From contig CAVPSB010000002.1 in NCBI GenBank assembly GCA_963708025.1, positions 224,001 through 288,000 of the forward strand: 64,000 nucleotides of DNA, written 5' to 3'. Under the pieces are notes generated by a model. That model saw only the letters and a program-made list of their open reading frames with translations. It searched no databases and was not told where the DNA came from. This DNA comes from an uncultured Candidatus Rokubacteria bacterium. Its GTDB lineage: Bacteria; Methylomirabilota; Methylomirabilia; Rokubacteriales; DASRDR01. Made by a program: the position numbers and the translations under genes. Shown here one piece after another: positions 46,865-64,000 of this stretch. Numbering within the stretch: position 1 is the stretch's first letter; the number at the start of each line of letters is the position of its first letter.

Positions 46865-48247
46865 ATGAAGCGCAGCGCCCGGGTCCTGATCGTGGACGAC
46901 GAGCCGGAGGTGGTGGCCAACTGGACGCGCGTCCTGGAGCGGGATGCGCATGCCTGCACCACGGCCACCGAGGGTCAGCGCGCGCTCGCGCTCCTCGAGA
47001 CCGAGCGGCCCGACGTGGTCCTGACCGACCTTCAGATGCCGGGTGTTGACGGGCTCACCCTGCTGCGGCGGGCTCTCGAGCTCGATCCCGACGTGGTCGT
47101 CATCGTCATCACGGGCCACGGGACCGTGGAGTCGGCGGTGCAGGCCATGCGGGAAGGCGCCTTCGACTATCTCCTCAAGCCCCTGCCGTCCAACGACACG
47201 CTCCGGCTCGTCGTCGAGCGCGCGGTGGCCCGGCGGCGGCTCGTCGAGGAGAACCGGCGCCTGCGCGAGTCGCTCTCGCCGCAGGTCCGCTTCGACACGC
47301 TGGTCGGCAAGAGCTCGGCCATGCAGAGCGTGCTGGAGCTGGTCCGCAAGGCGGCCCGCTCGGATGCCAACATCCTGATCCAGGGAGAGTCGGGCACCGG
47401 GAAGGAGCTGGTGGCCCGGGCCATCCACGCCAACAGCCCCCGGGCGGCGGAGGTCTTCGTCCCCGTCGACTGCGCCGCCCTCCCGGAGCAGCTCCTGGAG
47501 TCCGAGCTGTTCGGGCACGAGCGGGGCGCCTTCACCGGAGCCGAGCGCACGAAGCCCGGGATGTTCGAGGTGGCCGACCGCGGCACGCTGCTTCTCGACG
47601 AGGTGGGCGAGCTGCCCCTCGGACTCCAGGCCAAGCTGCTCCGCGCGCTCCAGGAGCGCGAGATCCGGCGGGTGGGCGGCACCAAGCTCATCCCGGTCGA
47701 CGTCCGCCTGGTCTCGGCGACGAACCGCGACCTGGGCGAGTCGGTGAGCAAGCGGGAGTTCCGGGAGGACCTCTTCTACCGGGTCAACGTGATCCTCATC
47801 GCGCTGCCGCCCCTCCGTGACCGGACCGGCGACGTGCCGCTCCTCGCTTACCACTTCCTGGGCCGCTACGGCCGGAACCGCGAGCGGCCGCTCGAGGGGC
47901 TCGACGCCGACGCCCTCGCGCTGCTGGAAGCCTACACGTGGCCGGGGAACATCCGCGAGCTGCAGAACGTGATCGAGCGGGCCTGCGCGCTGGCCGACGG
48001 GCCGACGCTCCGCCTGCGCGATCTCCCGGACCACATCCGCGGCCGGGGCCGGCCGGGCCCGGCGGTGCCGGGCAAGCGGCTGCCCCTGCGGCAGGCCCGG
48101 GAGAGGTGGCTCCGGGTCTTCACCCAGGAGTACCTGTTGGATCTCCTGCGGGACCACGGCGGCAACATCTCGCAGGCGGCCAAGACCGCCGGCGTCGACC
48201 GGAAGACGCTGCACCGGCTCCTGTCCCGGTTCGACATCAAGACCTGA
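46865..48247 (+). CDS. Sigma54-dependent response regulator (NtrC/AtoC family)
   Basis: Receiver 'VDDE..TDLQMP', 'GESGTGKE', 'GAFTGA', 'WPGNIREL', Fis HTH. Confidence 0.95.
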   Translation: MKRSARVLIVDDEPEVVANWTRVLERDAHACTTATEGQRALALLETERPDVVLTDLQMPGVDGLTLLRRALELDPDVVVIVITGHGTVESAVQAMREGAFDYLLKPLPSNDTLRLVVERAVARRRLVEENRRLRESLSPQVRFDTLVGKSSAMQSVLELVRKAARSDANILIQGESGTGKELVARAIHANSPRAAEVFVPVDCAALPEQLLESELFGHERGAFTGAERTKPGMFEVADRGTLLLDEVGELPLGLQAKLLRALQEREIRRVGGTKLIPVDVRLVSATNRDLGESVSKREFREDLFYRVNVILIALPPLRDRTGDVPLLAYHFLGRYGRNRERPLEGLDADALALLEAYTWPGNIRELQNVIERACALADGPTLRLRDLPDHIRGRGRPGPAVPGKRLPLRQARERWLRVFTQEYLLDLLRDHGGNISQAAKTAGVDRKTLHRLLSRFDIKT

Positions 48248-48420
48248 GAAACCTCGGGGGTGTCGGAACACCCCCCGAGGCTCCCCCCAGCGAAGGCCGC
48301 GACTATTGGACGGCCTTCGGCCTTGGGGCCGCGGCTCGCCCCGGGCGCTCGGCGAGAGCCAGAGGGGGGCGAGATGCCGGCGGGCGGTAGGAATGGGAGC
48401 CGCCGGCATCTCTTCACGGG
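48248..48420 (+). repeat. Repeat family A, full copy
   Basis: Begins at stop codon; GGACGGCCTTCGGCCT and GGAATGGGAGCCGCCGGCAT. Confidence 0.8.
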
Positions 48421-48484
48421 CCCTGGGAGATCCTCCGGGGCCCGGAAGACCCCCCCGGGGGCCGCGCGGCCGGAGCCGGGGGGG

Positions 48485-48763
48485 TTACGACAAGCCGGCG
48501 GTCGGTTGCAACGGGAGCCGCCGGCGCTGGGTCACCGATCCTGAGAGCGCCCGGTCGTCGCCCGGGGGTGGGCCGCCCTCGCGGGGCAGCGACACCGCGT
48601 CGATCCGCACGCGGCCGGCGCCGGCCAGCAGCGTGATGTAGCCGAGCGCGCAGGCCTCGGACACGCCCAGCGAGTGAGCCAGCTGGCACGCCGAGAGGCT
48701 GCCGTGCGGCTCGAGGCAGGCCGTCACTTCCGCTTCGATCGCGTCCAGCCATCCAGGAATCAT
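48485..48763 (-). CDS. Small hypothetical protein, winged-HTH-like
   Basis: 'HGSLSACQLAHSLGVSE..YITLLAGAGRVRI'; GGAGGA RBS; own sigma54 box. Confidence 0.65.
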   Translation of the reverse strand: MIPGWLDAIEAEVTACLEPHGSLSACQLAHSLGVSEACALGYITLLAGAGRVRIDAVSLPREGGPPPGDDRALSGSVTQRRRLPLQPTAGLS

Positions 48764-48810
48764 CTCGATCCTCCCGCGCGGCGCTTCACCGGGCCGCCGG
48801 TCTTCACCGG

Positions 48811-48826
48811 TGCAGCCACGATGCCA
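48811..48826 (-). promoter_or_regulatory. Sigma54 -24/-12 promoter
   Basis: TGGCAT-CGTGG-CTGCA. Confidence 0.6.
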
Positions 48827-48901
48827 GACGAGAGCCGCCGCGGTGCCCGGGGGTCCGTGCTCACGCGGGAGGATCGAGGAGCGACGCGAGCGCGCCGGGG
48901 G

Positions 48902-49309
48902 TCACCGGGCGGGGCCCTCGAGCAGGGTCAGGAGGGCGTCCAGCGCGTCGGCCGTCGTGAAGATCCCGACGATCGCGTCGCCGTCGCGCACCGGGAGGGC
49001 GCCGATCTTGCCCTCGAGGAGGAGGCGGGCGGCGATGGTCACCGGCGTCTCGGGAGCGACCGTGACCGGACCTTCGGTCATGATCTGACTGACCGGGTCC
49101 GTGAGGCGCGCCGGGTGCGCCGGGTCCTCGAGGAGCCGCCGGACATCCCGGTTGGACAGGATGCCGGCCAGGCGGTCGCCGTCCATGACGAGGAGATGGC
49201 GCACGTCCGCGCCTTGCATGAGCCCGAGCGCCTGCCTGATCGGGCAGTCGACGGTCACGCTCAGCGGCTGTCGCGTCATCCAGTGCTCGATGGTTCCGTG
49301 GTCCCGCAT
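48902..49309 (-). CDS. CBS-domain protein
   Basis: Two CBS repeats 'VRHLLV..GILS', 'IGALPV..VGIFT'. Confidence 0.9.
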   Translation of the reverse strand: MRDHGTIEHWMTRQPLSVTVDCPIRQALGLMQGADVRHLLVMDGDRLAGILSNRDVRRLLEDPAHPARLTDPVSQIMTEGPVTVAPETPVTIAARLLLEGKIGALPVRDGDAIVGIFTTADALDALLTLLEGPAR

Positions 49310-49326
49310 GGCGTGAGGCTGGAGTG

Positions 49327-49342
49327 TGCAACGGTAGTGCCA
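49327..49342 (-). promoter_or_regulatory. Sigma54 -24/-12 promoter
   Basis: TGGCAC-TACCG-TTGCA (consensus). Confidence 0.85.
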
Positions 49343-49383
49343 CCGGCCGCGCGCCTGTTTCCCGAGAATCGGGCCCCTCCAGG

Positions 49384-49420
49384 TGGGGCGCCATCGCCTC
49401 GCTGGGGCAAGATCGCCTCA
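49384..49420. promoter_or_regulatory. Tandem putative enhancer sites TGGGGC-N6-GCCYCR
   Basis: TGGGGCGCCATCGCCTCG and TGGGGCAAGATCGCCTCA. Confidence 0.65.
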
Positions 49421-49473
49421 CACGAGCCGGTCGGATAGCGGCTCCCGGGCCGACCGGGTCGCCGAACTCAGTT

Positions 49474-49575
49474 CGGTATCTCCCCCCCCCAGCCCCCCCT
49501 CCCCCACCCATTGACGGCCTTCGGCCTTTGGCCGGGGGAGGGGGGAGTCGGACGACCCATTCCTTAACAGGTCTC
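49474..49575 (+). repeat. Repeat family B
   Basis: Matches 27002-27116. Confidence 0.82.
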
Positions 49576-49666
49576 AGCGCTCCGTCGGCGGCTTCCTGGC
49601 GCCGAGGTGTCGGCCCGGGGGACGAGGAGCGGTCCCATCCGTCGCCGACACCGGTGCGTGGCCTTC

Positions 49667-49682
49667 TGGCGTGCCGCTTGCT
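49667..49682 (+). promoter_or_regulatory. Sigma54 -24/-12 promoter of nifJ
   Basis: TGGCGT-GCCGC-TTGCT. Confidence 0.75.
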
Positions 49683-49696
49683 GTCCACTGCATTTG

Positions 49697-53283
<3,587 letters not shown>

Positions 53284-53291
<8 letters not shown>

Positions 53292-54285
53292 CCTCTCCAC
53301 GTCGTATCTGGGGCTCGCGCTCAGGAGTCCCGTGGTCGCCTCCGCGTCCCCGCTCTGTGAAGACGTCGACAACATCCGGCGAATGGAGGATGCGGGGGCC
53401 GGCGCGGTCGTTCTCCACTCCTTGTTCGAGGAGCAGATCACGCTGGAGAGCCACCACCTGGACCGGTATCTCTCGCAAGGGGCGGAGAGCTTCGCCGAGT
53501 CGCTGACCTACTTCCCCGACATGACGGCCTACAACCTGGGACCGGACGGGTATCTGGAGCACGTTCGCCGGGCCAAGGCCGCGGTCGGCATCCCGATCAT
53601 CGGGAGCCTCAACGGCGTCTCGACCGGCGGCTGGATCCGCTACGCCCGGAAGATCGAAGAGGCCGGCGCCGACGCGCTGGAGCTGAACGTCTACTACATC
53701 CCCACCGATCCGGAGATGACCGGCGCCGACGTCGAGCGGATGTACGTCGAGCTCGTGCGCGACGTGGCCGCCAGCGTCCGGATCCCGGTGGCGGTCAAGC
53801 TCGGCCACGCCTTCAGCGCGATGGCCAACCTCGCGCGGCAGCTCGAGGAGGCCGGGGCCCGCGGGCTCGTCCTGTTCAATCGCTTCTACCAGCCCGACTT
53901 CGACCTCGAGCAGCTGCAGGTGGTGCCTCGCCTGACCCTGAGCAGCCCGTACGAGCTGCTGTTGCGCGTGCACTGGGTCGCGATCCTCTACGGCCACGTC
54001 CGGGCCGACCTCGCCGTGACCGGAGGCGTGCACACGGCGCAGGACGTGCTGAAGGCCATGATGGCGGGGGCCCGGGTGGCGATGATGACGTCGGCGCTCC
54101 TCAAGCACGGGGTCGACCTCTTGCGGGTGGTGCGGGCGAACCTGGTGGCCTGGATGGAAGCGCACGAGTACGAGTCCATCCGCCAGATGCAGGGGAGCAT
54201 GAGCTACCGGTCGGTGGCCGAGCCGGCCGAGTTCGAGCGGGCCAACTACCTGAAGGTGCTCGGCTCGTACGTGCTCCGCGGCTAG
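53284..54285 (+). CDS. Dihydroorotate dehydrogenase-like protein (nifJ-associated)
   Basis: 'SLFEEQ', 'ADALELN', 'VAVK', 'LFNRFYQPD', 'FERANY'. Confidence 0.9.
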
Positions 54286-54327: not shown

Positions 54328-54455
54328 CGGTCCGGCTCCCCCCTCCCCCGGTGCCGGCCGGAGGGACGGGACGTCGCGAGGGCCGTAGGCCCGAGCCGTC
54401 CCGGCGATACGATCAAGCGGGAGGGGGGTTGGGGGGGTGGGCGGGAGGTCCCGAA
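54328..54455 (-). repeat. Family B repeat with long internal segment
   Basis: Inverted near-identical copy of 37500-37628. Confidence 0.88.
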
Positions 54456-54537
54456 GAGGTCCCGAGCTGGGGCGGGCCGGCCCGGCCCACGTCCCCGTCC
54501 GAGCCGGCCACCGGTGGAAGTCGCGCGGCTCGCCGGC

Positions 54538-54553
54538 TGGCACCTCGGATGCA
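54538..54553 (+). promoter_or_regulatory. Sigma54 -24/-12 promoter
   Basis: TGGCAC-CTCGG-ATGCA. Confidence 0.75.
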
Positions 54554-54591: not shown

Positions 54592-54972
54592 ATGAATGGG
54601 CTACTGCTCGGCTGGTTCACGGCCTTCCTGATCGGGCTCAGCGTCGTGCTCATGCTGATCATCGCCGTGGTGCTGCTGCCCCGCGCGATGGGGATCCGGA
54701 TGGCGCGCTTTTACTGCCCGTGGAGGCGCCGGGACGTGACGATGCGGTACGTCACCCACGACGGCGAGCACCCGGTCGCGGTGGTGTCGTGCACGGCCTT
54801 CGCGGACCCCAGCGTCGTGACCTGCGGCGCCCCCTGCATCAGCGAGAAAGGCAAGGCCCAGGTGGCCGCTGGTGGGCGGGCGGTCAACAACCTGAGCGGG
54901 CCGCGCGTCGTGACCGGGGCACCCTCTCCGGACGCCTCCTCGGTCGCCCGCACGGCCCCCGCTCCACCGTGA
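54592..54972 (+). CDS. Membrane-anchored 4-Cys hypothetical protein
   Basis: TM helix then 'FYCPW..VSCTAF..TCGAPC'; GGAGG RBS. Confidence 0.7.
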   Translation: MNGLLLGWFTAFLIGLSVVLMLIIAVVLLPRAMGIRMARFYCPWRRRDVTMRYVTHDGEHPVAVVSCTAFADPSVVTCGAPCISEKGKAQVAAGGRAVNNLSGPRVVTGAPSPDASSVARTAPAPP

Positions 54973-54982
54973 ATCGGGAGGG

Positions 54983-55432
54983 GTGACCATGGCGAGAACG
55001 ATCCTGGTCCCGCTGGATGGATCGGCCGGCAGTGAAGCGGTCCTCGCCGCCGTGGAGCGGATCGCGCGGGCGGAGGGCGCGACGGTGCGGCTGCTCCAGG
55101 TCGCCTCGCCGGTCGAGGCGCTGCTCGTGGACGGGCACGTGGTCCGCTACGCCGATCAGGAGGTCGCGCGGATCCGGCACCAGGCCCAGACGTACCTGAT
55201 GGGCGTAGCGGCGGCGCTGGGTGTCAACGTGGAGGTCCGGGTCCGGTTCGGCGACCCGGTCGAGGAGATCGTCCGCGAGGCCGGGAGCGGCGGGATCGGA
55301 CTGGTCGCGATGGCGACTCGCCGGCGGACCGGCCTGAAGCGCCTGCTCGAGCGCAGCGTCGCCGCCCGCGTCAAGCGGGCGACCCGCATCCCGGTCCTCC
55401 TCATCCGCCACGGCGCACGCCTGGCCGCCTGA
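54983..55432 (+). CDS. Universal stress protein
   Basis: 'ILVPLDGS', 'GDPVEEI', 'SVA..V..IPVLL'. Confidence 0.9.
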   Translation: MTMARTILVPLDGSAGSEAVLAAVERIARAEGATVRLLQVASPVEALLVDGHVVRYADQEVARIRHQAQTYLMGVAAALGVNVEVRVRFGDPVEEIVREAGSGGIGLVAMATRRRTGLKRLLERSVAARVKRATRIPVLLIRHGARLAA

Positions 55433-55470: not shown

Positions 55471-55486
55471 GCGTCAGAGCCAGGGG

Positions 55487-55524
55487 TGGGGCATTGGCGC
55501 CCCGCTTGTCCCCGCGGTGCCGCA
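55487..55524. promoter_or_regulatory. Putative enhancer sites
   Basis: TGGGGCATTGGCGCCCCG plus weaker second site. Confidence 0.55.
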
Positions 55525-55575: not shown

Positions 55576-55591
55576 TGGCACTGGCCTTGCT
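55576..55591 (+). promoter_or_regulatory. Sigma54 -24/-12 promoter
   Basis: TGGCAC-TGGCC-TTGCT. Confidence 0.85.
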
Positions 55592-55649: not shown

Positions 55650-56522
55650 GTGAATCGAATCCTGGTTCCGCTCGACGGCTCCCGCCTCGCAGAAGCGATC
55701 CTGCCCATGGCCAGGGCGCTGGCCCGCGACTACAAGGCTGATCTCCTGCTGGTACGGGTGCTCCGTCCCCTCGGGTCGGCCGAGGCCGAGGTCGAGGCCC
55801 AGGAAGACGCCGAGGCGTATCTGCGCGCGGTGGCCGGCCGGCTGCACGCGCGCGGCCTGCCGGTCACGTGGAAGGTCTGGTACGACGAGCCGGCGCGGGC
55901 GATCGCGGACGCCGCGCGCTACAACGACGTCGGCCTGATCGTCATGAGCACGCACGGGCGCGGCGGCGTCAACCGCCTGCTCTTCGGCAGCGTCGCCGAG
56001 ACGCTGGTCCGCCAGGCGCCGGTGCCCGTGCTCCTCGTCCGCGGCGAGCTGTCGTGGCAGCCCGGGGACCTGGGGAAGATCCTGGTCCCCCTCGACGGAT
56101 CGGAGCTGTCGGAGGCCGTGCTGCCCATCGTCGAGCGCCTGGCCGGGCCCTTCGACTTCGCCGTCGAGCTGCTGCGCGCCATCGAGCCGATCCCCCCCTA
56201 CGCCGCGGCCGAGCTGACCAGCAGCATCACCGAGGACATCGGGCGGGTCGAGCGGGAGGACGCCGAGACGTACCTCGCGAAGGTCGCGGCGCCGCTGGAG
56301 GCGAAGGGCTGCCGGGTGAAGTCGATGGTGGCACTGGCACCGGCGGTGGACGCGATCCTCCGCGCCGCGCAGGAAGGCCGGGTCGGGCTCATCGCCATGA
56401 CCACGCACGGCCGGAGCGGGATCGGCCGGCTCCTGCTGGGGAGCGTCGCCGAGCGGGTGCTCCGCACCGCACCGGCGCCGGTGCTCCTGTGGAAGGCGCC
56501 GGCGGCGGGCCGACCGGGCTGA
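55650..56522 (+). CDS. Tandem-domain universal stress protein
   Basis: Two 'ILVPLDGS..THGR..GSVAE' units. Confidence 0.92.
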   Translation: MNRILVPLDGSRLAEAILPMARALARDYKADLLLVRVLRPLGSAEAEVEAQEDAEAYLRAVAGRLHARGLPVTWKVWYDEPARAIADAARYNDVGLIVMSTHGRGGVNRLLFGSVAETLVRQAPVPVLLVRGELSWQPGDLGKILVPLDGSELSEAVLPIVERLAGPFDFAVELLRAIEPIPPYAAAELTSSITEDIGRVEREDAETYLAKVAAPLEAKGCRVKSMVALAPAVDAILRAAQEGRVGLIAMTTHGRSGIGRLLLGSVAERVLRTAPAPVLLWKAPAAGRPG

Positions 56523-56548
56523 GGGAGCGGGACGAAGGAGGAGCGATC

Positions 56549-57850
56549 ATGGGTGAGCCGGGGCTGACCATCATCGACAACCGGACGGGGAAGCGTTACG
56601 AGGTGGCGATCGAGCACGGGGCCATCCGGGCGACCGACCTGCGGCGGATCAAGACGGACCCGGACGACTTCGGGCTCCTCTCGTACGACCCCGCCTTCAT
56701 GAACACGGCCTCGTGCACGAGCACGATCACCTTCATCGATGGGGACCGCGGGATCCTCCGGTACCGCGGGTACCCCATCGAGCAGCTCGCCGAGCAATCG
56801 AGCTATCTCGAGACGGCGTACCTCCTGGTTCACGGCGAGCTGCCGACGGGGGCCGAGCTGGAGGCCTGGCGGTGGGAGATCACCCACCACACCTGGATCC
56901 ACGAGAACCTCAAGAAGTTCCTGGACGGCTTCCACCACGACGCCCACCCGATGGCGATGCTCGTCTCGGCGGTGGCGGCGCTCTCCACGTTCTATCCCGA
57001 GGCCAAGCAGCCCGGCGACGGCCGCCTGCAGATGGTCCGGCTCATCGCCAAGATGCCGACGCTGGCCGCCTTCGCCTACCGGCACAGCCTCGGGATGCCG
57101 TACGCGTACCCCGACAACGACCTCTCGTACGCCGGCAACTTCCTCAACATGCTCTTCAAGGCAACCGAGGTGAAGTACGCGCCGAGCCCGATCCTGGAGC
57201 GCGCGATCGACGTCCTGTTCATCCTCCACGCCGATCACGAGCAGAACTGCTCCACGAACGCCGTTCGGAGCGTCGGGTCCTCCCGCGTCAACCCGTACTG
57301 CGCGGTGGCCGCCGGGGTGGCGGCCCTCTATGGCCCGCTCCACGGCGGGGCGAACGAGGCGGTGCTCCGGATGCTCCAGGAGATCGGGTCGGTGGGCGCG
57401 GTGCCCGCCTTCATCCGGAAGGTCAAGGCGGGCGAGGGGCGGCTGATGGGCTTCGGCCACCGGGTCTACAAGAGCTACGACCCCCGAGCCCGGATCATCA
57501 AGGTCCTGGCCGACCAGGTCTTCGCGGTGACCCAGCCGAACCCCCTCCTGCCGATCGCGCTCGAGCTCGAGCGGATCGCCCTCGAGGACGATTACTTCGT
57601 GAAGCGGCAGCTCTACCCGAACGTCAACTTCTACTCAGGGCTCATCTACCAGGCGATGGGGTTCCCGGTCGACATGTTCCCCGTGCTCTTCGCCATCCCC
57701 CGGACCTCGGGGTGGCTGGCTCAGTGGCTCGAGATGAGCCGAGACCCCGAGCAGAAGATCGCCCGACCCCGTCAGCTCTACCTCGGCACCGCGCTGCGGG
57801 ACTTCGTCCCGCTCGAGAAGCGCGAGCCGGACGAGACGGACCTCCCCTAG
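56549..57850 (+). CDS. gltA: Citrate synthase homolog with catalytic Asp->Asn
   Basis: 'LHADHEQN', 'HGGANE', 'GFGHRVYK'; 'YPNVNFYSG' instead of YPNVDFYSG. Confidence 0.93.
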   Translation: MGEPGLTIIDNRTGKRYEVAIEHGAIRATDLRRIKTDPDDFGLLSYDPAFMNTASCTSTITFIDGDRGILRYRGYPIEQLAEQSSYLETAYLLVHGELPTGAELEAWRWEITHHTWIHENLKKFLDGFHHDAHPMAMLVSAVAALSTFYPEAKQPGDGRLQMVRLIAKMPTLAAFAYRHSLGMPYAYPDNDLSYAGNFLNMLFKATEVKYAPSPILERAIDVLFILHADHEQNCSTNAVRSVGSSRVNPYCAVAAGVAALYGPLHGGANEAVLRMLQEIGSVGAVPAFIRKVKAGEGRLMGFGHRVYKSYDPRARIIKVLADQVFAVTQPNPLLPIALELERIALEDDYFVKRQLYPNVNFYSGLIYQAMGFPVDMFPVLFAIPRTSGWLAQWLEMSRDPEQKIARPRQLYLGTALRDFVPLEKREPDETDLP

Positions 57851-57865
57851 GCGAGAGGTGGGTGG

Positions 57866-58927
57866 GTGGCCTCCGACTTCGTCTACGATCGGGTGCCGCG
57901 GCGAGTCTACTGGGAGCTGACGCGGGCCTGCGACCTCGCCTGCCGGCACTGCCGGGCCGAGGCGATCGCGAGCCGCGACCCGCGGGAGCTGACGACGGAC
58001 GAGGGCCGGCGCCTCCTCGAGGCGCTCCGCGAGCTCGGCGACCCCGGTCCGGCGGTGGTCCTCACCGGGGGCGATCCGCTCGCGCGGCCGGACTTATGGG
58101 ACCTGCTGGACCACGGCGTCCGGCTCGGCCTCCCGATGGACGTGGCCCCGAGCGGCACTCCCTTGCTGACACCCGAGGTGGTCGGGCGGCTCGCCCGGGC
58201 GGGCGCGCGGGCGATGTCCCTCAGCCTGGACGGCCCGGACGCGGCTCGCCACGACGGCTTCCGCGGCGTGCCGGGCTGCTTCGACCAGACGATGGAGGCG
58301 GCGCGAGCCGCGGTCGCCGCCGGCCTCTCGCTCCAGGTCAACACGCTGGTCACGGCCGGCACGCTGGGCGACCTCCCGGCCGTCTACGAGCGCGTGTGCG
58401 ACCTCGGCGCCGCGCGGTGGAGCCTGTTCTTCCTGATCCAGGTCGGCCGCGGTCGCGGCCTCCAGCAGCTCACGCCGGCCGCCGGCGAGGCCCTGCTGGC
58501 GTGGCTGTGGGCCTGCGCCGGGCCGGGCGGTCCCATCGTCAGCGCCACCGAGGCGCCGCACTACCGCCGGGTGGCGCTCCAGCGCCGCCGGACGGGCGAG
58601 GGTGGAGCGGCTCACCGGGCGCTCCGCCACGGGTTCGGGATCCGCGACGGGAACGGGATCATGTTCGTCTCGAACGTCGGGGACGTCCAGCCCTCGGGCT
58701 TCCTGCCCATCGTCGCCGGCAACGTGCGGCGTGCGCATCCCGGCGTGATCTACCGGGATGCGCCGCTCTTCCGGGCCCTGCGCGCCGCGGCCGGCTTTCA
58801 CGGCCGGTGCGGCCGCTGTGAGTTCCGGGAGGTGTGCGGCGGCTCGCGGGCCCGCGCCTATGCGACGGCCGGCGATCCGCTCGGCGAGGACCCGCTGTGC
58901 GCGTACCAGCCAGCCGGGGGGAGGTAG
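57866..58927 (+). CDS. Radical SAM/SPASM protein (TIGR04053/NirJ-like)
   Basis: 'WELTRACDLACRHCRA', 'LTGGDP', 'CGRCEFREVCGGSRARA'. Confidence 0.9.
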   Translation: MASDFVYDRVPRRVYWELTRACDLACRHCRAEAIASRDPRELTTDEGRRLLEALRELGDPGPAVVLTGGDPLARPDLWDLLDHGVRLGLPMDVAPSGTPLLTPEVVGRLARAGARAMSLSLDGPDAARHDGFRGVPGCFDQTMEAARAAVAAGLSLQVNTLVTAGTLGDLPAVYERVCDLGAARWSLFFLIQVGRGRGLQQLTPAAGEALLAWLWACAGPGGPIVSATEAPHYRRVALQRRRTGEGGAAHRALRHGFGIRDGNGIMFVSNVGDVQPSGFLPIVAGNVRRAHPGVIYRDAPLFRALRAAAGFHGRCGRCEFREVCGGSRARAYATAGDPLGEDPLCAYQPAGGR

Positions 58928-58929
58928 AC

Positions 58930-59559
58930 ATGGACCTCGACGGGCTCCTGAGCGACACCGCGGACGGCGTCTGCGCGGTCGGCCAGGACGGCAAGATCGT
59001 CATGTGGAACCGGGCGGCGGAGAGGATCCTCGGTCACACCGCCCGTGAGGTGCTCGGGCGGCCCTGCTGCGACGTGTTCGCTGGGCGCGACGTCGGCGGC
59101 AACCGGCTCTGCTTCCAGGGCTGTCAGGTCCTCACGCTGGTCCGGCGGGGCGAGCCGGTTCAGCACTTCCAGATGTCGACCCGCACGAAGCAGGGGAAGC
59201 CGGTCTGGCTCGACATCAGCATCCTGGTGGTGCCGGGGAGCCATCGCGACCTGGCGACCACGGTGCACCTCTTCCGCGACGCCACCGTCGTCCACGAGGT
59301 CGAGGCGCTGGTCCGGCAGCGCCTCGCCGAGACCGCCCTCCCTCCCTCGAACGGGGCCGGGAACGGAGGCGGGCTGACGCGGCGCGAGCTCGAGATCCTG
59401 CGGCTGCTCGCCGGGGGCGCCAACACGCGGGCGATGGCCGCGCGGCTCCGCGTGAGCCCGGCGACGATCCGGAACCACGTGCAGAACATCTTCGGCAAGC
59501 TCGAGGTGCACAGCCGGCTCGAGGCCGTCGCCTGGGCCACCCGCCACGGCCTGCTCTGA
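58930..59559 (+). CDS. PAS plus LuxR-HTH transcriptional regulator (Cys-rich PAS)
   Basis: 'WNRAAERILG..GRPCCDVF..RLCFQGC'; 'LTRRELEIL..TIRNHVQNIFGKL'. Confidence 0.9.
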   Translation: MDLDGLLSDTADGVCAVGQDGKIVMWNRAAERILGHTAREVLGRPCCDVFAGRDVGGNRLCFQGCQVLTLVRRGEPVQHFQMSTRTKQGKPVWLDISILVVPGSHRDLATTVHLFRDATVVHEVEALVRQRLAETALPPSNGAGNGGGLTRRELEILRLLAGGANTRAMAARLRVSPATIRNHVQNIFGKLEVHSRLEAVAWATRHGLL

Positions 59560-59705
59560 AGACCATCGGGAGGTCTCGGAAGACCCCCCGATGCCCCCCC
59601 TTCGGAGGCCGCGGCGAAGCCGCGGCTCGAAGTGGAACGCCACGGCCGCGCGGCCGCAACTGAGAGGGTTGCGTGAAGCCAATGGCGTAGGAACGAGAGC
59701 CGGGG
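59560..59705 (+). repeat. Repeat family A, short-loop variant
   Basis: GCCGCGGC-GAA-GCCGCGGC replaces the long loop; AGTGGAACGCCACGGCCGCGCGGCC as at 27210. Confidence 0.85.
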
Positions 59706-59918: not shown

Positions 59919-59990
59919 AATTCGGGACCTCCCGCCCCCCCCCCAACCCCCCTCCCCCACCCACTGGGAGGGGGGCCGGAGGACTTCGCC
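59919..59990 (+). repeat. Repeat family B, short variant
   Basis: TTCGGGACCTCCCGCCCC..CCCTCCCCCACCCAC..GGGAGGGGGGCCGGAGG. Confidence 0.7.
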
Positions 59991-60006
59991 TACCAGAGGT
60001 CCTCCG

Positions 60007-60396
60007 CTACTCGGGACCGCGCGGGGTTGCGTGGAAGAGGAGCACGCTCGCGGCCGAGCGGAGGAACACCTGCTCGGCCACGCTGCCCAGGGCCACCCGG
60101 CGGAGGCCACCCTGGCCGGCGGTGGTCACGGCGATCAGGTCCGCGCCGAAGGCGTTGGCCTCCTTCAAGATCTCGGCCACCGGGTCGCCGAAGCGGACGA
60201 CGCTGTCGACGGGGACGCTCTGCAGCCGGGCCTCCAGGGCGTGGAGGTAGCCGCTCTCCTCCGTCGGACCCGGCTCGGGGGCGACGTGGAGGAGGCGTAG
60301 CGAGGCGCCGCTTCCCCGCGCCAGGTCGGCGACGAGCGGCACGATGCGCTCCGCGGCGGGAGATCCGTCGAGCGGGACCAGGATGCGCTTCGCCAT
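60007..60396 (-). CDS. Universal stress protein (short)
   Basis: 'ILVPLDGS', 'GDPVAEI', 'LGSVAEQV'. Confidence 0.88.
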   Translation of the reverse strand: MAKRILVPLDGSPAAERIVPLVADLARGSGASLRLLHVAPEPGPTEESGYLHALEARLQSVPVDSVVRFGDPVAEILKEANAFGADLIAVTTAGQGGLRRVALGSVAEQVFLRSAASVLLFHATPRGPE

Positions 60397-60571
60397 CGTC
60401 CATCTCCTTCAACTGGCCCGGGTCCCCGGCTTCGGGACCCCTTCGCGGCCGGTCCCGAGGCGCTTGGCCACGTGGTACTTTCTGGCCAGACCCGCGACCT
60501 GGCCGCGGTCGGGCAGGTCGCCCGGCCGCGGCGGTGGCTTGCCTCGGTCGCGCGTCTTGCGGCCCTCGCGG

Positions 60572-61009
60572 CTACTCGGGCTTGATGGGGATCAGGGTGC
60601 CTTTCGCCGCCGCCCCCTTGGGCAGCTTCACCATCAGGGTGCCGTTCTTGAAGGTGGCCGTCACCTTGCCCGCCTCGACGGGCGCCGGCAGCGGGATGGT
60701 CCGGGCGAAGGCGCCGTAGGTGCGCTCCATCCGGAAAAAGGTCTCCTCCTTCTCCTCCTTCTCGTGCTTCTTCTCGCCCTTGATCGTGAGGGCGTCGCCG
60801 TCCAGGGTCAGCGTGATCTCCTTCGGGTCGATGCCCGGGATCTCAGCCGTCACCATGAAGGCGTCCTTGGTGTCGGCCACGTCCACCTTCGGCATCCAGT
60901 CGCCGAGGGCGGGCCACGCCGGCCAGTCGGTCTCCCAGAACCGATCGAAGAGCCGATCCATCTCCTTCCTCAGCGCGGTCACTCCGGTCCAGGGCGTCAG
61001 CGCTTTCAT
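60572..61009 (-). CDS. Hsp20/alpha-crystallin small heat-shock protein
   Basis: 'AEIPG', 'ERTYGAFAR', 'ATFKNGTL..LPK'. Confidence 0.93.
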   Translation of the reverse strand: MKALTPWTGVTALRKEMDRLFDRFWETDWPAWPALGDWMPKVDVADTKDAFMVTAEIPGIDPKEITLTLDGDALTIKGEKKHEKEEKEETFFRMERTYGAFARTIPLPAPVEAGKVTATFKNGTLMVKLPKGAAAKGTLIPIKPE

Positions 61010-61055: not shown

Positions 61056-61071
61056 AGCAACCCCAGTGCCA
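61056..61071 (-). promoter_or_regulatory. Sigma54 -24/-12 promoter
   Basis: TGGCAC-TGGGG-TTGCT. Confidence 0.85.
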
Positions 61072-61122
61072 CGCGGGCTTCACGCGACGGCGGGTACTTG
61101 CGCTCCGTCGCTCGCCGGCAGG

Positions 61123-61160
61123 TGGGGCACGGAGTTCCCGGCCGGGGCCTCGCCGCCCCA
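61123..61160. promoter_or_regulatory. Tandem putative enhancer sites
   Basis: TGGGGCACGGAGTTCCCG and CGGGGCCTCGCCGCCCCA. Confidence 0.6.
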
Positions 61161-61169
61161 CGTCTCAGA

Positions 61170-61401
61170 GCCCGTCAAGAATGCCAGCGGCTCCCATTCC
61201 ACCGCCCGTCGGCGTCGCAACCCTCCGTCTCGGGCCGAAGGCCGTCCAACGGCCGCAGCCTCCGAGGGGGGGAAGGGGGGGTCTTCCGAGACCCCCCCGG
61301 AGAATCACAGAGCGCGTGAAGGAATCGGGGCCTCCGGCTCCCCCCTCCCCCCGGTGGGTGGGGGAGGGGGGCTGGGGGGGTGGAGGGAGGTCCCGAAGAT
61401 C
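61170..61401 (-). repeat. Composite B+A repeat after birA stop
   Basis: Same order as 27002-27285, on the minus strand. Confidence 0.85.
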
Positions 61402-62229
61402 TCACTCGAGGAGGCGCACGTCGCCGGCGAGGACCCGGTGGACGACGCCGTGGGCGTCCTCGATCTCGAGGTGTCCGTCGGCGGCGACGCTGCGCGCCCG
61501 GCCCTCCAGGGCGCCGCGGTCGTCCCGGACCTCGACTCGGCGCCCGGTGACGATGTCGAGGTCGCGCCAGGCGCGGAGGATCCGCTCCGGGCCCTGATCA
61601 CGATACATGATCAGCCACTCGTCGAGGTACGAGAGGAAGGCTCCGGTGAAGGCGTTTCGCTCGACCGGCCGTCCGAGCGCCTCCCGGAGCGAGATGGCGT
61701 GCTGGGCCGCCGGGCCGAGGGCTGCCCGGAGCAACTCGCACGCGACGTTGACGTTCACCCCCACGCCGAGGATGACGTGCTCCAGCCGGTCGCCGGCGAT
61801 CGACAGCTCGGTCAGGATTCCCGCCACCTTCCGGTGCTTCACCAGGACGTCATTGGGCCACTTGATCGCCGGGTGGAGGCCCAGCTCCCGGATCGCGTCG
61901 GCCAGCGCCAGGGGGGCCACGAACGAGAACACCGGCGCCGCCGCCGGCGTGATTCCGGGCCGACACAACACCGAGGCGTAGAGGTTCACGCCGGGCGGCG
62001 AGAACCAGGCCTTCCCGGCCCGGCCCCGGCCGGCCGTCTGGCTCTCGGCGAGCACGGTGGTTCCCTCGGCGGCGCCGGCCCGGGCCAGCTCGCGGAGGAT
62101 CTGGTTGGTGGAGGGGACGGCCTCGTAGAGACAGAGCCAGAACCCCTGCCCCACCGTGGGAGCGGACAGGTGCCGGCGGATCTCGTCGACACTCAGCGCG
62201 TTCTCGACCATCGCGACATCAGGGGGCAT
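61402..62229 (-). CDS. birA: Biotin-protein ligase (no N-terminal HTH)
   Basis: 'STN', 'QTAGRGR', 'KWPND', 'KVAGIL', 'GVGVN'. Confidence 0.92.
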   Translation of the reverse strand: MPPDVAMVENALSVDEIRRHLSAPTVGQGFWLCLYEAVPSTNQILRELARAGAAEGTTVLAESQTAGRGRAGKAWFSPPGVNLYASVLCRPGITPAAAPVFSFVAPLALADAIRELGLHPAIKWPNDVLVKHRKVAGILTELSIAGDRLEHVILGVGVNVNVACELLRAALGPAAQHAISLREALGRPVERNAFTGAFLSYLDEWLIMYRDQGPERILRAWRDLDIVTGRRVEVRDDRGALEGRARSVAADGHLEIEDAHGVVHRVLAGDVRLLE

Positions 62230-62242
62230 GGGGATGCTCCTC

Positions 62243-63160
62243 TCACTGGCCTTCGGGGCCCACCGTGAGGACCGGGCAGGGGGCGGTCTGCAGGAGGTGA
62301 TGTGCCACCGAGCCGAGCATCCAGCGCACCAGGCCCGACCGCCCCTGCGTGCCGATGACGATCAGGTCGGCGCCGCGCGCCTGGGCCCAGTGCACGACCT
62401 GCTCCTCGACCACGCCGCGACCGATCAGGACCTGGACGCGCTCGCGGGGAAGCCGTCCGGGCTGGTCGCGCTCGGACTGCTGCAGGAACCGCTCGGCCTC
62501 CGACTGCCCCTGCTCGTCGAGCAGCGCGGCCATCCGCCCGATGAGCTCCGGCGAGAGGTGCCGGTCCGGGACGGGCTGCGCGGTGACGTGCAGGAAGTCA
62601 ACCGTCGCTCCGGTCGCCCCGGCGAGGGCCTGGACCCACGGCCACGCCATCTTCGCGGTGGGCGAGAAATCGGTCGAGTAGAGGATCCGTCCCATCCGCG
62701 CCGGCCGGGTGCCGGAGAGCTGCGGCCGCACGGTCACGACCGGCCGGGGCGCGCTGCGGACGATCCGGTCGGCGACGCTGCCGAGAAGGACGCGGCCCAC
62801 GCCGGCCCGGCCGTGGGTGCCGACCACGAGGAGGTCGCTGCCCTCCTCGCGCGCCACGTCGAGGATCCGCAGGGCCGCCGAGCCCTCGACGATCCGGCTC
62901 CGCGCCTTGAGAGGGGGATCGCCGAGCTTCGCGAGCACCGCGTCGAGGCGCGCCTGCGCCTCCTGCTCCGCGCCCTCCACCAGCTCCTGGTACATCTGGG
63001 GCGGGAAGTAGCCCTCCATCGGGACGAACACCGGCGGCACGACGTGGAGGAGTAGCAGCTCGGCGCCGAGCGCCCGGGCGAGGAGCTGAGCCTCCTCCCA
63101 CGCCGGCTCGGATGCCGGCGACAGGTCGGTCGCGCAGAGGATCTTCCGGATCGGGGTCAT
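62243..63160 (-). CDS. Tandem-domain universal stress protein
   Basis: 'ILCATDLS..GTHGR..LGSVA', second 'ILYSTDFS..LGSVA..PCPVL'. Confidence 0.92.
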   Translation of the reverse strand: MTPIRKILCATDLSPASEPAWEEAQLLARALGAELLLLHVVPPVFVPMEGYFPPQMYQELVEGAEQEAQARLDAVLAKLGDPPLKARSRIVEGSAALRILDVAREEGSDLLVVGTHGRAGVGRVLLGSVADRIVRSAPRPVVTVRPQLSGTRPARMGRILYSTDFSPTAKMAWPWVQALAGATGATVDFLHVTAQPVPDRHLSPELIGRMAALLDEQGQSEAERFLQQSERDQPGRLPRERVQVLIGRGVVEEQVVHWAQARGADLIVIGTQGRSGLVRWMLGSVAHHLLQTAPCPVLTVGPEGQ

Positions 63161-63268
63161 CGCTCGGTCGCCTCCGTCGGGGCCGGGGTCGGTGCCGTCA
63201 TCGACACGCGCTCGTCCATCGCGACTCCTTTCGGCGCGCGTCCGCCGTGGCGCGCGGGAGACCACCAC

Positions 63269-63284
63269 TGCAACGTCAGTGCCG
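63269..63284 (-). promoter_or_regulatory. Sigma54 -24/-12 promoter
   Basis: CGGCAC-TGACG-TTGCA. Confidence 0.75.
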
Positions 63285-63359
63285 GGGCCGGGCACGGCGA
63301 ATTCGCCGTTCCTCCGGGAGGTTTGGGGCCGCACTGGCCTACCCCACGGCGCCTGCGGG

Positions 63360-63396
63360 TGGGGCAGGGCTGTCCCGGTCGGGCGCGGCCGCCCCA
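63360..63396. promoter_or_regulatory. Tandem putative enhancer sites
   Basis: TGGGGCAGGGCTGTCCCG and TCGGGCGCGGCCGCCCCA. Confidence 0.6.
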
Positions 63397-63416
63397 GCCG
63401 CCGGCCAGCCCGATGA

Positions 63417-64000
63417 TCACCTCGGCCGCGCCAGCGCGGGCAGGAGGATCACGAAGGTCGTTCCCGCCCCCGGCGCGCTCACGACCTCCAGGTCCCCGTG
63501 GTGGTCCTTCACGATGCGGTAGCTGATGGCGAGACCGAGCCCGGTGCCGCCGGGCTTCGTCGTGAAGAACGGCAGGAAGATCTGCTCCCGGACCTCGGGC
63601 GGTATGCCGGGGCCGGTATCGGAGACCGTCATGCGCACCCAGCCCGGCCGGTCGCCGGCCAGCCCGGTCTCCACGCGGATCAACCCCTGATTGCCGAGCA
63701 CGTCGCGCGCGTTGTTCAGCAGGTTGAGCAGCACCTGCTCGAGCTCGTTGGCGTCGGCCTCCACCAGCGGGAGCCCGGGCGTGAGCCGTCGCTCGACGAC
63801 GATGCCCGTCTTCGTCGCGTGCTTCTCGAAGAGGAGGAGCGTCTCCTCGGCCACCGCGTTGATGTCCGTGGGCCGCTTGACGGCGGGCCCGCGCCGGGCG
63901 AAGGAGGTCAGGGCCTGGGTGATCCGGCCCACGCGCTGGGCGTTCCGCTGGAGCACGGCCAGATCGTCTCGCACCGGGCCCGGCAGGCCGGACTCCTCGG
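63417..64000 (-). CDS. Sensor histidine kinase, C-terminal part (runs off window)
   Basis: 'QVLLNLLNNA', 'DTGPGI', 'FFTTK..GTGLGL'. Confidence 0.92.
   Translation of the reverse strand, partial: EESGLPGPVRDDLAVLQRNAQRVGRITQALTSFARRGPAVKRPTDINAVAEETLLLFEKHATKTGIVVERRLTPGLPLVEADANELEQVLLNLLNNARDVLGNQGLIRVETGLAGDRPGWVRMTVSDTGPGIPPEVREQIFLPFFTTKPGGTGLGLAISYRIVKDHHGDLEVVSAPGAGTTFVILLPALARPR

What the first reader, a model, noticed from the sequence alone, without database searches (positions are those of the whole stretch)
46865..64000. Sigma54-driven hypoxia/dormancy-type regulon with DosR-like gene content
Seen: seven -24/-12 boxes, each just upstream of and co-oriented with a transcription unit (48811-, 49327-, 49667+, 54538+, 55576+, 61056-, 63269-). 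I noticed none in the first 46 kb. The block is bounded by an NtrC-type activator with intact GAFTGA and a histidine kinase. Targets are four USP genes, CBS, Hsp20, PFOR plus DHOD-like, citrate synthase, radical SAM, PAS-LuxR, BirA and two unknown proteins. Established: USPs, a CBS protein and HspX are hallmarks of the mycobacterial DosR regulon, which uses a LuxR-type regulator rather than sigma54. Inference: a convergent low-oxygen programme wired through a sigma54 two-component system; the strongest candidate for an undescribed system here.
Basis: partly seen in the sequence, partly recalled or inferred. Interest (0 to 1): 0.86.

Follow-up and report, generated by a model that had tools for sequence, protein, structure and literature searches.

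The report
Sigma-54 stress regulon with haem-type kinase
A 17-kb block in a probable Rokubacteria genome has five convincing sigma-54 promoters in front of stress-survival genes, next to a likely activator and a kinase whose relatives carry FixL-like haem sensor domains. It looks like a low-oxygen survival programme of a kind known in other bacteria, wired in a different way.

Summary
Five boxes are convincing: CBS, membrane protein+USP, tandem USP-citrate synthase-radical SAM-PAS/LuxR, Hsp20-USP, and tandem USP-BirA. Each has at most 1 mismatch, lies between genes and points at its gene. All five carry a YGCCCCASCY motif 47-112 nt upstream, a candidate activator site.

Two boxes are not above chance on sequence: the small unknown gene and PFOR. 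PFOR ranks 722nd on a PWM, and the PFOR gene has a frameshift.

The activator is an intact NtrC-type protein. Full-length relatives of the kinase have two PAS domains that match FixL and DosP haem domains, and the proximal histidine is kept. This is new support for an oxygen or gas signal.

The system is not undescribed in kind. Myxococcus NmpRSTU is a hypoxia-induced, sigma-54, NtrC-type system with CBS and USP targets (PMC11841059). I rate it a new variant of a known kind. Conservation of the boxes, presence of rpoN and expression could not be tested.

The parts
43390..43404 (+). Extra sigma-54-like box TGGAAC-N5-TTGCT, 49 nt before the F420-type LLM oxidoreductase gene (43454-44368).
   Evidence: PWM rank 6 of 127,958
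46865..48247 (+). NtrC-type enhancer-binding response regulator: receiver domain (Asp54), AAA+ sigma-54 interaction domain (GESGTGKE, GAFTGA, Walker B DE) and a Fis-type HTH. No sigma-54 box lies upstream of it.
   Evidence: below every NCBIfam equivalog cut-off
48485..48763 (-). Small unknown protein (92 aa, weak HTH_11 hint at E=0.03). Its 3' end overlaps a REP-like repeat.
48812..48826 (-). Marginal sigma-54-like box TGGCAT-N5-CTGCA (2 mismatches), 48 nt before the small unknown gene.
   Evidence: rank 23
48902..49309 (-). CBS-pair protein (135 aa).
49328..49342 (-). Strong sigma-54 box TGGCAC-N5-TTGCA (0 mismatches), 18 nt before the CBS start codon, giving a very short leader.
49381..49409 (-). 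Candidate activator sites: CGCCCCACCT and TGCCCCAG, 47 and 66 nt upstream of the CBS box, in the shared CBS/PFOR intergenic region.
49667..49681 (+). Doubtful sigma-54-like box TGGCGT-N5-TTGCT (2 mismatches), 15 nt before the PFOR ATG. A transcript from it would be nearly leaderless.
   Evidence: rank 722
49697..53291 (+). Pyruvate:ferredoxin oxidoreductase. The reading frame changes between about 52424 and 52452, so the TPP-binding domain sits in another frame.
53284..54285 (+). Dihydroorotate dehydrogenase-like protein (NF005741, 484 bits, cut-off 303). It overlaps the PFOR stop by 8 nt.
54465..54474 (-). Candidate activator site CGCCCCAGCT, about 70 nt upstream of the 54538 box.
54538..54552 (+). 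Strong sigma-54 box TGGCAC-N5-ATGCA (1 mismatch), 39 nt before the membrane-protein gene.
54592..55432 (+). Operon of an unknown Cys-rich membrane-anchored protein (54592-54972; its nearest Atlas cluster is commonest in Methylomirabilota) and a single-domain USP (54989-55432).
55484..55493 (-). Candidate activator site TGCCCCACCC, about 89 nt upstream of the 55576 box.
55576..55590 (+). Strong sigma-54 box TGGCAC-N5-TTGCT (0 mismatches), 59 nt before the tandem USP gene.
55650..59559 (+). Four-gene operon: tandem USP (55650-56522), citrate synthase (56549-57850), TIGR04053 radical SAM/SPASM protein (57866-58927) and a PAS-LuxR regulator without receiver domain (58930-59559). The gaps between genes are 26, 15 and 2 nt.
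60007..61009 (-). Hsp20 (60572-61009) followed by a single-domain USP (60007-60396), probably one transcript. No box was found in the 175-nt gap between them.
61057..61071 (-). Strong sigma-54 box TGGCAC-N5-TTGCT (0 mismatches), 47 nt before Hsp20.
61120..61161 (-). Candidate activator sites: TGCCCCACCT (61120-61129, same strand as the gene) and CGCCCCAC (61154-61161, opposite strand), 57 and 89 nt upstream of the box.
61402..63160 (-). Tandem USP (62243-63160) and a biotin-protein ligase without HTH (61402-62229), 13 nt apart. A possible 20-codon upstream ORF (63157-63219) has its own Shine-Dalgarno sequence.
63270..63284 (-). Strong sigma-54 box CGGCAC-N5-TTGCA (1 mismatch), 109 nt before the tandem USP start.
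63324..63399 (-). Candidate activator sites (GCCCCA at 63324, TGCCCCACCC at 63357-63366, CGCCCCAGCC at 63390-63399 on the opposite strand), 45-112 nt upstream of the box.
63417..64000 (-). C-terminal 193 aa (end of DHp plus HATPase_c) of a histidine kinase. The rest lies beyond the window. Relatives of 528-672 aa have PAS x3 + HisKA + HATPase_c, and two of the PAS domains are FixL/DosP-like.

Best explanation
This is a clustered sigma-54 regulon for stress survival in a probable Rokubacteria (Methylomirabilota) genome.

Proposed mechanism:
1. A soluble kinase with two FixL-like haem-PAS domains senses oxygen, or another haem ligand or redox state (inferred from relatives).
2. When the signal says 'low oxygen', it phosphorylates Asp54 of the NtrC-type activator at 46865-48247 (inferred).
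3. The activator assembles on YGCCCCAS sites 47-112 bp upstream of the promoters (candidate sites; the binding is inferred).
4. With ATP and its GAFTGA loop (shown in the sequence), it opens sigma-54 RNA polymerase complexes at five promoters (the promoter sequences are shown; their use is inferred).

Output: four USPs and a CBS-pair protein (nucleotide-binding, energy-state proteins), an Hsp20 holdase, citrate synthase, an AhbD/NirJ-like radical SAM enzyme, a biotin ligase, a membrane protein of unknown function, and a PAS-LuxR regulator that could pass the signal to further genes. PFOR with its DHOD-like partner, the small unknown gene and the F420 oxidoreductase at 43454 are possible but unproven members.
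For: Promoters:
- 6 of 6 boxes with at most 1 mismatch are intergenic, co-oriented and 10-150 nt from a start codon (P = 6.5e-10), and 5 of the 6 lie in the block.
- TTGCW follows in 8 of 8 candidate boxes against 12 of 36 other hits.

Shared upstream motif:
- A de novo search over seven of the eight upstream regions (PFOR's, which shares the CBS intergenic region, was not given separately) returns YGCCCCASCY as the top motif. It has good sites in exactly the five strong promoters.
- GCCCCA occurs 9 times in 1,324 nt of upstream zones (6.8 per kb), against 0.56 per kb in other non-coding DNA and 0.8 per kb in coding DNA.
- 6 of the 9 window-wide matches to YGCCCCASCY lie 47-112 nt upstream of those five boxes.

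Activator: receiver domain, sigma-54 AAA+ domain with GAFTGA, and HTH_8 are all intact.

Kinase:
- The best relative, P0122, is 90% identical over the window's 193 aa and has PAS x3 + HisKA + HATPase_c.
- PAS-A matches FixL haem domains (1d06, E = 1.4e-20; 1dp6, E = 3e-20) and PAS-B matches DosP (E = 4e-13). The FixL proximal His column is kept.
- The same His motif is visible in PAS-A and PAS-B of all three relatives printed.
- The kinase core is closest to ZraS, the partner of an NtrC-type regulator.

Linkage in relatives: hits to the activator, kinase and tandem USP share identical longest-contig lengths. These are 9715 and 35091 (activator + kinase), 36995 (all three) and 65403 (activator + USP). 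That these are the same contigs is an inference.

Precedent: NmpR of Myxococcus (PMC11841059).

A second instance of part of the module: in a Syntrophobacteraceae MAG (L001), a TIGR04053 radical SAM gene with a TGGCAT-N5-TTGCT box 48 nt upstream precedes the citrate synthase most similar to this one (77%). Two divergent CBS genes there also have sigma-54-like boxes.
Against: - There are no expression data. rpoN was not seen: it is not in the window and the rest of the genome could not be read.
- The kinase's sensor part is outside the window, so it is known only from relatives.
- The residue aligned with FixL Arg220 (the position changed in entry 1y28) is Leu, so the ligand need not be O2.
- Haem binding itself is untested.
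- The kinase and the activator are about 15 kb apart and are not in one operon.
- The upstream motif was found post hoc, is not palindromic, and varies in orientation and spacing.
- The Myxococcus NmpR site GCGCA-N5-TGCGC is absent from the upstream zones.
- PFOR is frameshifted in this assembly.
- Conservation of the boxes in related genomes could not be tested. The one genome scan, made with citrate synthase, returned no Rokubacteria locus.
Confidence: 0.6

Rival explanations
1. The same sigma-54 regulon and activator, but the signal is not oxygen. It would be a general energy-starvation, heat or stationary-phase programme, or a response to NO, CO or redox state sensed by the PAS domains.
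For: USP, Hsp20 and CBS proteins are general stress proteins. FixL Arg220, important for O2 discrimination (recalled), is Leu in the relatives' PAS-A. A third PAS domain has no haem-sensor match. No respiratory or oxidase genes are in the block, unlike the NmpR regulon.
Against: 13 of the 14 PDB matches of the PAS-A/B region at E<=1e-6 are haem oxygen sensors (FixL, DosP/YddU), and the proximal His is kept. Oxygen-labile PFOR and radical SAM genes lie in the cluster. The same gene set is induced by low oxygen in Burkholderia (lxa locus, PMC3721108) and partly in Myxococcus.
Confidence: 0.22
2. The promoters are real sigma-54 promoters, but they are served by one or more other enhancer-binding proteins elsewhere in the genome. 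The flanking activator and kinase would be neighbours without being the regulators, or not a cognate pair.
For: The activator and the kinase are about 15 kb apart and on opposite strands. The boxes at 43390 and 48826 lack the shared upstream motif. Binding was not tested.
Against: This is the only enhancer-binding protein among the ORFs scanned in the 64-kb window, and it sits at the edge of the block. Relatives appear to keep activator, kinase and tandem USP on the same contigs, one of them only 9,715 nt long (inference from equal contig lengths). The kinase core is of the ZraS/NtrB type that pairs with NtrC-type regulators.
Confidence: 0.13
3. The boxes are chance matches in G+C-rich intergenic DNA and do not function as promoters.
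For: At up to 2 mismatches the pattern is no more frequent than in shuffles (44 against 44.4). Intergenic regions here are full of G/C-run repeats.
Against: 6 of 6 matches with at most 1 mismatch fall in the 2.94% of positions that are promoter-competent. All are followed by A/T. The five strong ones share a further upstream motif.
Confidence: 0.03

Closest known systems
NmpRSTU / NmpR regulon of Myxococcus xanthus (PMC11841059, J Bacteriol 2025; abstract, sections 16 and 22 and passages read)
   Same: An NtrC-type response regulator acts at sigma-54 promoters. A haem-based kinase sits at the top. The system is induced by hypoxia. A CBS-domain gene and a USP gene are among its targets, as is a radical SAM enzyme (HemN there, a TIGR04053 AhbD/NirJ-like protein here). 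It has about seven promoters.
   Different: In Myxococcus a globin-coupled kinase (NmpU) feeds a hybrid kinase (NmpS) in a phosphorelay. Here a single kinase type with FixL-like PAS domains is seen, and no relay partner is in the window. The NmpR site GCGCA-N5-TGCGC is absent from the upstream zones here. Here the targets are clustered and dominated by USPs, Hsp20 and central-metabolism genes. There they include cbb3 oxidase, hemerythrin and pilR, and the system autoregulates. Orthology of the two activators was not tested.
DosR/DosS/DosT (DevRS) dormancy regulon of mycobacteria (recalled; also cited within PMC11841059)
   Same: The gene content is alike: several USPs, an alpha-crystallin/Hsp20 and a CBS-pair protein. 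A haem-based kinase is the sensor. The role is survival rather than growth.
   Different: DosR is a NarL/LuxR-type regulator acting at sigma-70-type promoters, and its kinases sense through GAF-haem domains. Here the regulator is an NtrC-type AAA+ activator of sigma-54 and the sensor is PAS-type. A LuxR-type protein is present here only as a target gene, and it has a PAS domain and no receiver domain.
FixL/FixJ oxygen-sensing system of rhizobia (PDB 1d06, 1dp6/1drm and others)
   Same: PAS-A of the kinase relatives matches FixL haem domains at E about 1e-20, with the proximal His aligned. The kinase is soluble and cytoplasmic.
   Different: There are two haem-type PAS domains in tandem plus a third PAS. 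FixL Arg220 is not kept (Leu). The likely partner is an NtrC-type sigma-54 activator rather than the LuxR-type FixJ. The kinase core is closer to ZraS than to FixL (1.5e-38 against 2.9e-33).
lxa (low-oxygen-activated) locus of Burkholderia cenocepacia (PMC3721108; abstract, passages and Table 4 read)
   Same: It is a contiguous gene cluster with six USPs, a small heat-shock protein, metabolic genes and regulators, and it is switched on at low oxygen.
   Different: It has 50 genes and is driven through an Anr/Fnr-like TGA-N6-TCA motif, not sigma-54. It was shown experimentally, whereas this one is predicted only.
Sigma-54 promoters before USP and small heat-shock genes in other phyla (PSSM survey, PMC12316311; passages read)
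   Same: That survey made a computational link between sigma-54 promoters and COG0589 (USP) and IbpA-type genes.
   Different: The survey reports USP enrichment in Planctomycetia. It does not mention Rokubacteria or Methylomirabilota (0 occurrences). It does not describe a clustered regulon with its sensor kinase.

Membership tests
Sigma-54 (-24/-12) promoters | GG and GC dinucleotides 10 nt apart within TGGCAC-N5-TTGCW (consensus recalled) | tested here: met
   All 8 of 8 candidate boxes keep GG and GC and are followed by A/T. Three have 0 mismatches, three have 1 and two have 2.
Sigma-54 (-24/-12) promoters | Placed upstream of, and co-oriented with, a gene, more often than chance allows | tested here: met
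   6 of 6 matches with at most 1 mismatch are promoter-competent, P = 6.5e-10. For the two 2-mismatch boxes only the position is supportive.
Sigma-54 (-24/-12) promoters | The genome encodes RpoN | not testable with these tools
   No rpoN is among the window's genes. The window's genome was not among the 80 loci returned. An intact GAFTGA activator implies RpoN but does not show it.
Sigma-54 (-24/-12) promoters | Boxes conserved in orthologous loci | not testable with these tools
   The single genome-contig scan, made with citrate synthase, gave no Rokubacteria locus.
NtrC-family enhancer-binding response regulator | Receiver domain with phospho-acceptor Asp, AAA+ sigma-54 interaction domain with Walker A/B and GAFTGA, and a C-terminal Fis-type HTH | tested here: met
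   Pfam Response_reg 9e-29, Sigma54_activat 4.8e-71, HTH_8 4.7e-06. The motifs were read in the translation.
Named NtrC-family equivalogs (AtoC, NtrC, ZraR, GlrR, NtrX, PEP-CTERM regulator) | Score above the NCBIfam curated cut-off | tested here: not met
   The best is AtoC at 468 bits against a cut-off of 714. All 25 listed models are below their cut-offs.
FixL-type haem-PAS sensor kinase | PAS domain homologous to the FixL haem domain | tested here: met
   Met for relatives only (P0122): 1d06 at 1.4e-20 and 1dp6 at 3e-20. 13 of 14 matches at E<=1e-6 are FixL or DosP/YddU. The window's own N-terminus lies outside the window.
FixL-type haem-PAS sensor kinase | Proximal haem histidine | tested here: met
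   A His is aligned with the FixL His in three FixL alignments. The same His motif is present in PAS-A and PAS-B of P0122, P0123 and P0127. Which His is the ligand is recalled, not taken from a call.
FixL-type haem-PAS sensor kinase | Distal-pocket Arg (BjFixL Arg220) used for O2 discrimination | tested here: not met
   The column that differs between 1dp6 and the 1y28 variant is Leu in the query. The role of this residue is recalled.
FixL-type haem-PAS sensor kinase | Binds haem, and kinase activity is gated by O2 | not testable with these tools
   Needs spectroscopy and kinase assays.
FixL-type haem-PAS sensor kinase | FixJ (LuxR-type) partner | tested here: not met
   The only response regulator in the block is NtrC-type. 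The LuxR-type protein has no receiver domain.
DosR-type dormancy regulon | NarL/LuxR-type response regulator and GAF-haem kinases | tested here: not met
   The regulator is NtrC-type. The kinase relatives closest to the window's fragment (56 to 90% identical) have PAS and no GAF, though some less similar hits do have GAF.
DosR-type dormancy regulon | Targets include several USPs, an alpha-crystallin and a CBS-pair protein | tested here: met
   Four USP genes, one Hsp20 and one CBS pair. The DosR gene list is recalled.
NmpRSTU-type system | NtrC-like regulator acting at sigma-54 promoters of CBS and USP genes | tested here: met
   compared with PMC11841059.
NmpRSTU-type system | Binding site GCGCA-N5-TGCGC in tandem near the promoters | tested here: not met
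   85 matches at up to 2 mismatches against 106 expected, and none in the upstream zones of the boxes.
NmpRSTU-type system | Globin-coupled kinase plus hybrid kinase phosphorelay | tested here: not met
   No globin or hybrid kinase is in the window. The kinase relatives are PAS-type without a receiver domain. The rest of the genome was not seen.

The most novel reading that the evidence does not exclude
A FixL-like tandem haem-PAS kinase is wired directly to an NtrC-type sigma-54 activator. Together they drive a compact DosR-like survival regulon (USPs, Hsp20, CBS, citrate synthase, an AhbD-like radical SAM protein and a second-tier PAS-LuxR regulator), and the system is conserved across the uncultured phylum Methylomirabilota/Rokubacteria. 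That would be a third, independent wiring of the 'hypoxic dormancy' gene set, after DosR (LuxR-type) and Anr/Fnr. It would also be a sensor-to-sigma-54 coupling that I did not find in print for FixL-type kinases.
Probability: 0.3. Interest if true: 0.6.

Novelty: new variant of a known kind. Interest (0 to 1): 0.45.

Why it matters
Rokubacteria are abundant in soil and have never been cultured, so how they survive swings in soil oxygen is unknown. This block offers a concrete, testable circuit of sensor, activator, five promoters, a candidate binding site and outputs. The activator, kinase and tandem USP each have many close relatives in metagenomes (for example more than 120 activator clusters at 74% identity or above). 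This suggests the circuit is a core trait of the group. It would also show that the USP/Hsp20/CBS survival gene set has been placed under oxygen control by different regulator types in different phyla. A specialist would find it coherent and useful but not very surprising, because Myxococcus NmpR already links sigma-54, haem sensing, CBS and USP genes.

Tried and rejected
- The listing of cluster members was tried in order to name the organism. Searches failed on my coordinate slips.
- The search for related loci with citrate synthase (one search was a coordinate slip) gave 80 loci, the best at 77% identity. None was the window's own genome and none was from Rokubacteria.
- tblastn of 18 window proteins against those 80 loci found no synteny except in L001.
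- The Myxococcus NmpR consensus is not enriched and is absent from the upstream zones.
- Folds of six 5' leaders gave z-scores from -1.9 to +1.25, so no convincing leader structure or RNA thermometer was found.
- The sigma-70 promoter and terminator scan of the block gave 0 and 0 hits, which is uninformative at 72% G+C.
- Pfam and NCBIfam gave only sub-threshold hints for the two unknown proteins. The Atlas gave only unnamed clusters.
- The G/C-run intergenic repeats were considered as the source of the boxes or the motif. They occur window-wide and contain neither.
- The PAS domain of the PAS-LuxR protein shows no haem-sensor match.
- Complex prediction, structure prediction, fold search and the search of protein representatives were not used. 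A kinase-regulator pair would tend to pass by likeness to solved pairs, and the sequence matches to FixL were already strong.

Full report
ORGANISM AND SETTING. The window is 69-74% G+C throughout. The activator's exact sequence sits on a 419,929-nt contig in the protein collection. The named relatives of the activator, the kinase and the tandem USP are from 'Candidatus Rokubacteria', Methylomirabilota or Methylomirabilia, apart from three lower-ranked kinase hits named Thermodesulfobacteriota, Solirubrobacterales and Planctomycetota. The nearest Atlas cluster of the unknown membrane protein is also commonest in that phylum. The first 43 kb encode transporters (TTT, ABC, Liv-type) and assorted enzymes, and hold no rpoN.

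THE BOXES.
- At up to 2 mismatches the consensus TGGCAC-N5-TTGC is no more frequent than in shuffles (44 against 44.4).
- At up to 1 mismatch there are 6 matches against 2.71 expected.
- Position is what counts. All 6 of those 6 lie in non-coding DNA, on the strand of the next gene, 10-150 nt from its start. Such positions make up 2.94% of the window's strand positions, so P = 6.5e-10. Five of the 6 are in the block.
It precedes an F420-type LLM oxidoreductase gene.
- All eight candidates are followed by A/T, as in TTGCW, against 12 of the 36 other hits.
- On a PWM trained on the five strong boxes of the block, 43390 ranks 6th, 48826 ranks 23rd and 49667 (PFOR) ranks 722nd of 127,958 positions.

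I therefore count five convincing promoters, one good extra, one marginal and one doubtful.

TRANSCRIPTION UNITS.
- CBS pair, with the small unknown gene perhaps read through behind it.
- PFOR + DHOD-like protein (doubtful box).
- Unknown membrane protein + USP.
- Tandem USP - citrate synthase - TIGR04053 radical SAM/SPASM - PAS-LuxR, with gaps of 26, 15 and 2 nt.
- Hsp20 (+ USP).
- Tandem USP - BirA-type ligase.

The CBS and PFOR boxes end only 18 and 15 nt before the start codons, so those leaders would be very short. PFOR changes frame between about 52424 and 52452. Residues up to 909 match Moorella PFOR residues 2-892 in one frame, and residues 910-1167 match in another frame. This is either an assembly error or a pseudogene.

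A SHARED UPSTREAM MOTIF. A k-mer count and an EM-type search over seven upstream regions both return YGCCCCASCY (TGCCCCACC at its core). Good sites occur in exactly the five strong promoters, 47-112 nt upstream of the -24 element, and there are none for 48826 or 43390.
- GCCCCA is about ten times denser there (6.8 per kb) than in other non-coding DNA (0.56 per kb) or coding DNA (0.8 per kb).
- 6 of the 9 window-wide matches to YGCCCCASCY are these sites (3.9 expected in the window).
- The motif was found post hoc, is not a dyad, and varies in orientation, so it is a candidate activator site, not a shown one.
- The window-wide G/C-run repeats are a separate matter.

THE REGULATORS. The activator has a receiver domain with Asp54, GESGTGKE, GAFTGA, a Walker B DE pair and a Fis-type HTH. 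It reaches no named NCBIfam equivalog.

Only the last 193 aa of the kinase are in the window. Its best relatives (up to 90% identical over that part, 528-672 aa) are soluble proteins with three PAS domains, HisKA and HATPase_c.
- PAS-A matches FixL haem domains at E about 1e-20. PAS-B matches E. coli DosP at about 4e-13.
- 13 of the 14 PDB matches at E<=1e-6 are haem sensors.
- The His aligned with the FixL proximal His is kept in both PAS domains of the three relatives read.
- The position of FixL Arg220 is Leu.
- The kinase core is nearest to ZraS, a partner of an NtrC-type regulator.
- Equal longest-contig lengths among hits suggest that the activator, kinase and tandem USP are linked in at least four relatives, once within 9.7 kb. 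This is an inference.

WHAT IS KNOWN.
- Myxococcus NmpRSTU is a haem-kinase phosphorelay ending in an NtrC-like regulator. It acts at sigma-54 promoters, is induced by hypoxia, and has seven promoters and 23 genes, including a CBS gene, a USP, hemN and cbb3 oxidase (PMC11841059). Its binding site is not found here.
- The Burkholderia lxa locus clusters six USPs and a small heat-shock gene under an Anr/Fnr-like motif (PMC3721108).
- The mycobacterial DosR regulon has the same kind of content under a LuxR-type regulator (recalled).
- A PSSM survey links sigma-54 to USP genes in Planctomycetia and to IbpA, and does not mention Rokubacteria (PMC12316311).
- No paper in the library holds both 'Rokubacteria' and 'universal stress protein' (0 papers). 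The 2 papers with both 'Methylomirabil' and 'rpoN' do not concern this, judged from listing and abstracts only.

A PARTLY PARALLEL LOCUS. In a Syntrophobacteraceae MAG (L001), the citrate synthase most similar to this one (77%) lies two genes after a TIGR04053 radical SAM gene that has TGGCAT-N5-TTGCT 48 nt upstream. Two divergent CBS genes there carry sigma-54-like boxes, and a P-type ATPase follows. There were 4 boxes at up to 1 mismatch against 0.93 expected, and two of the four are inside genes.

VERDICT. The oxygen reading is plausible and now has a sensor-level argument. The system is a new variant of a known kind rather than an undescribed one. Three things remain open: rpoN, conservation of the boxes, and expression.

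Noticed in passing
window 52424-52452: PFOR changes reading frame in a stretch that is not a homopolymer. The N-terminal 909 residues and the TPP-binding C-terminus are in different frames. This is an assembly error or a pseudogene.
   Followed up: yes
window 2667-2852, 7300-7338, 9841-9876, 22318-22366, 26521-26601, 26987-27280, 33997-34110, 37500-37616, 44465-44540, 48254-48547, 49468-49545, 54338-54474, 59565-59667, 59921-59981, 61233-61416: A modular family of G/C-run, hairpin-rich intergenic repeats (REP/MITE-like) occurs in both orientations all over the window. One pair (37500-37616 and 54338-54454) is 96% complementary over 117 nt. The repeats are not specific to the regulon.
   Followed up: partly
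window 39544-40051 and 41600-42106; 40040-43317: A 508-nt direct duplication (93-98% identical) of the 3' end of an APH-type phosphotransferase gene brackets a lower-G+C stretch (66%) with unknown ORFs. A HicB/HicA pair (42327-42934) and a MazG-like gene (43003-43317) lie just beyond the second copy. It looks like an insertion with a duplicated target.
   Followed up: partly
window 63157-63219 (-): A possible 20-codon upstream ORF with a good Shine-Dalgarno sequence (AAAGGAG). Its stop overlaps the ATG of the tandem USP gene (ATGA). It lies in the 109-nt leader of the 63270 promoter.
   Followed up: no
window 55575-55650: The collection's own gene call for the tandem USP is 315 aa and would start inside the sigma-54 box. 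Most relatives are about 290 aa, which supports the GTG at 55650.
   Followed up: partly
L001 3214-7281 and 10769-16534: A Syntrophobacteraceae MAG has a sigma-54-like box before a unit of TIGR04053 radical SAM, a CYCXC-family protein and citrate synthase. Divergent CBS genes there carry sigma-54-like boxes, and a P-type ATPase with an N-terminal EIIA-2 (PtsN-like) domain follows.
   Followed up: partly
window 49310-49696: The CBS and PFOR genes are divergent, and their boxes end only 18 and 15 nt from the start codons, with no Shine-Dalgarno sequence. This implies nearly leaderless transcripts if the boxes are used.
   Followed up: no
window 60397-60571: The 175-nt gap between Hsp20 and the downstream USP has no box and no recognisable family for its 58-codon frame.
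   Followed up: partly
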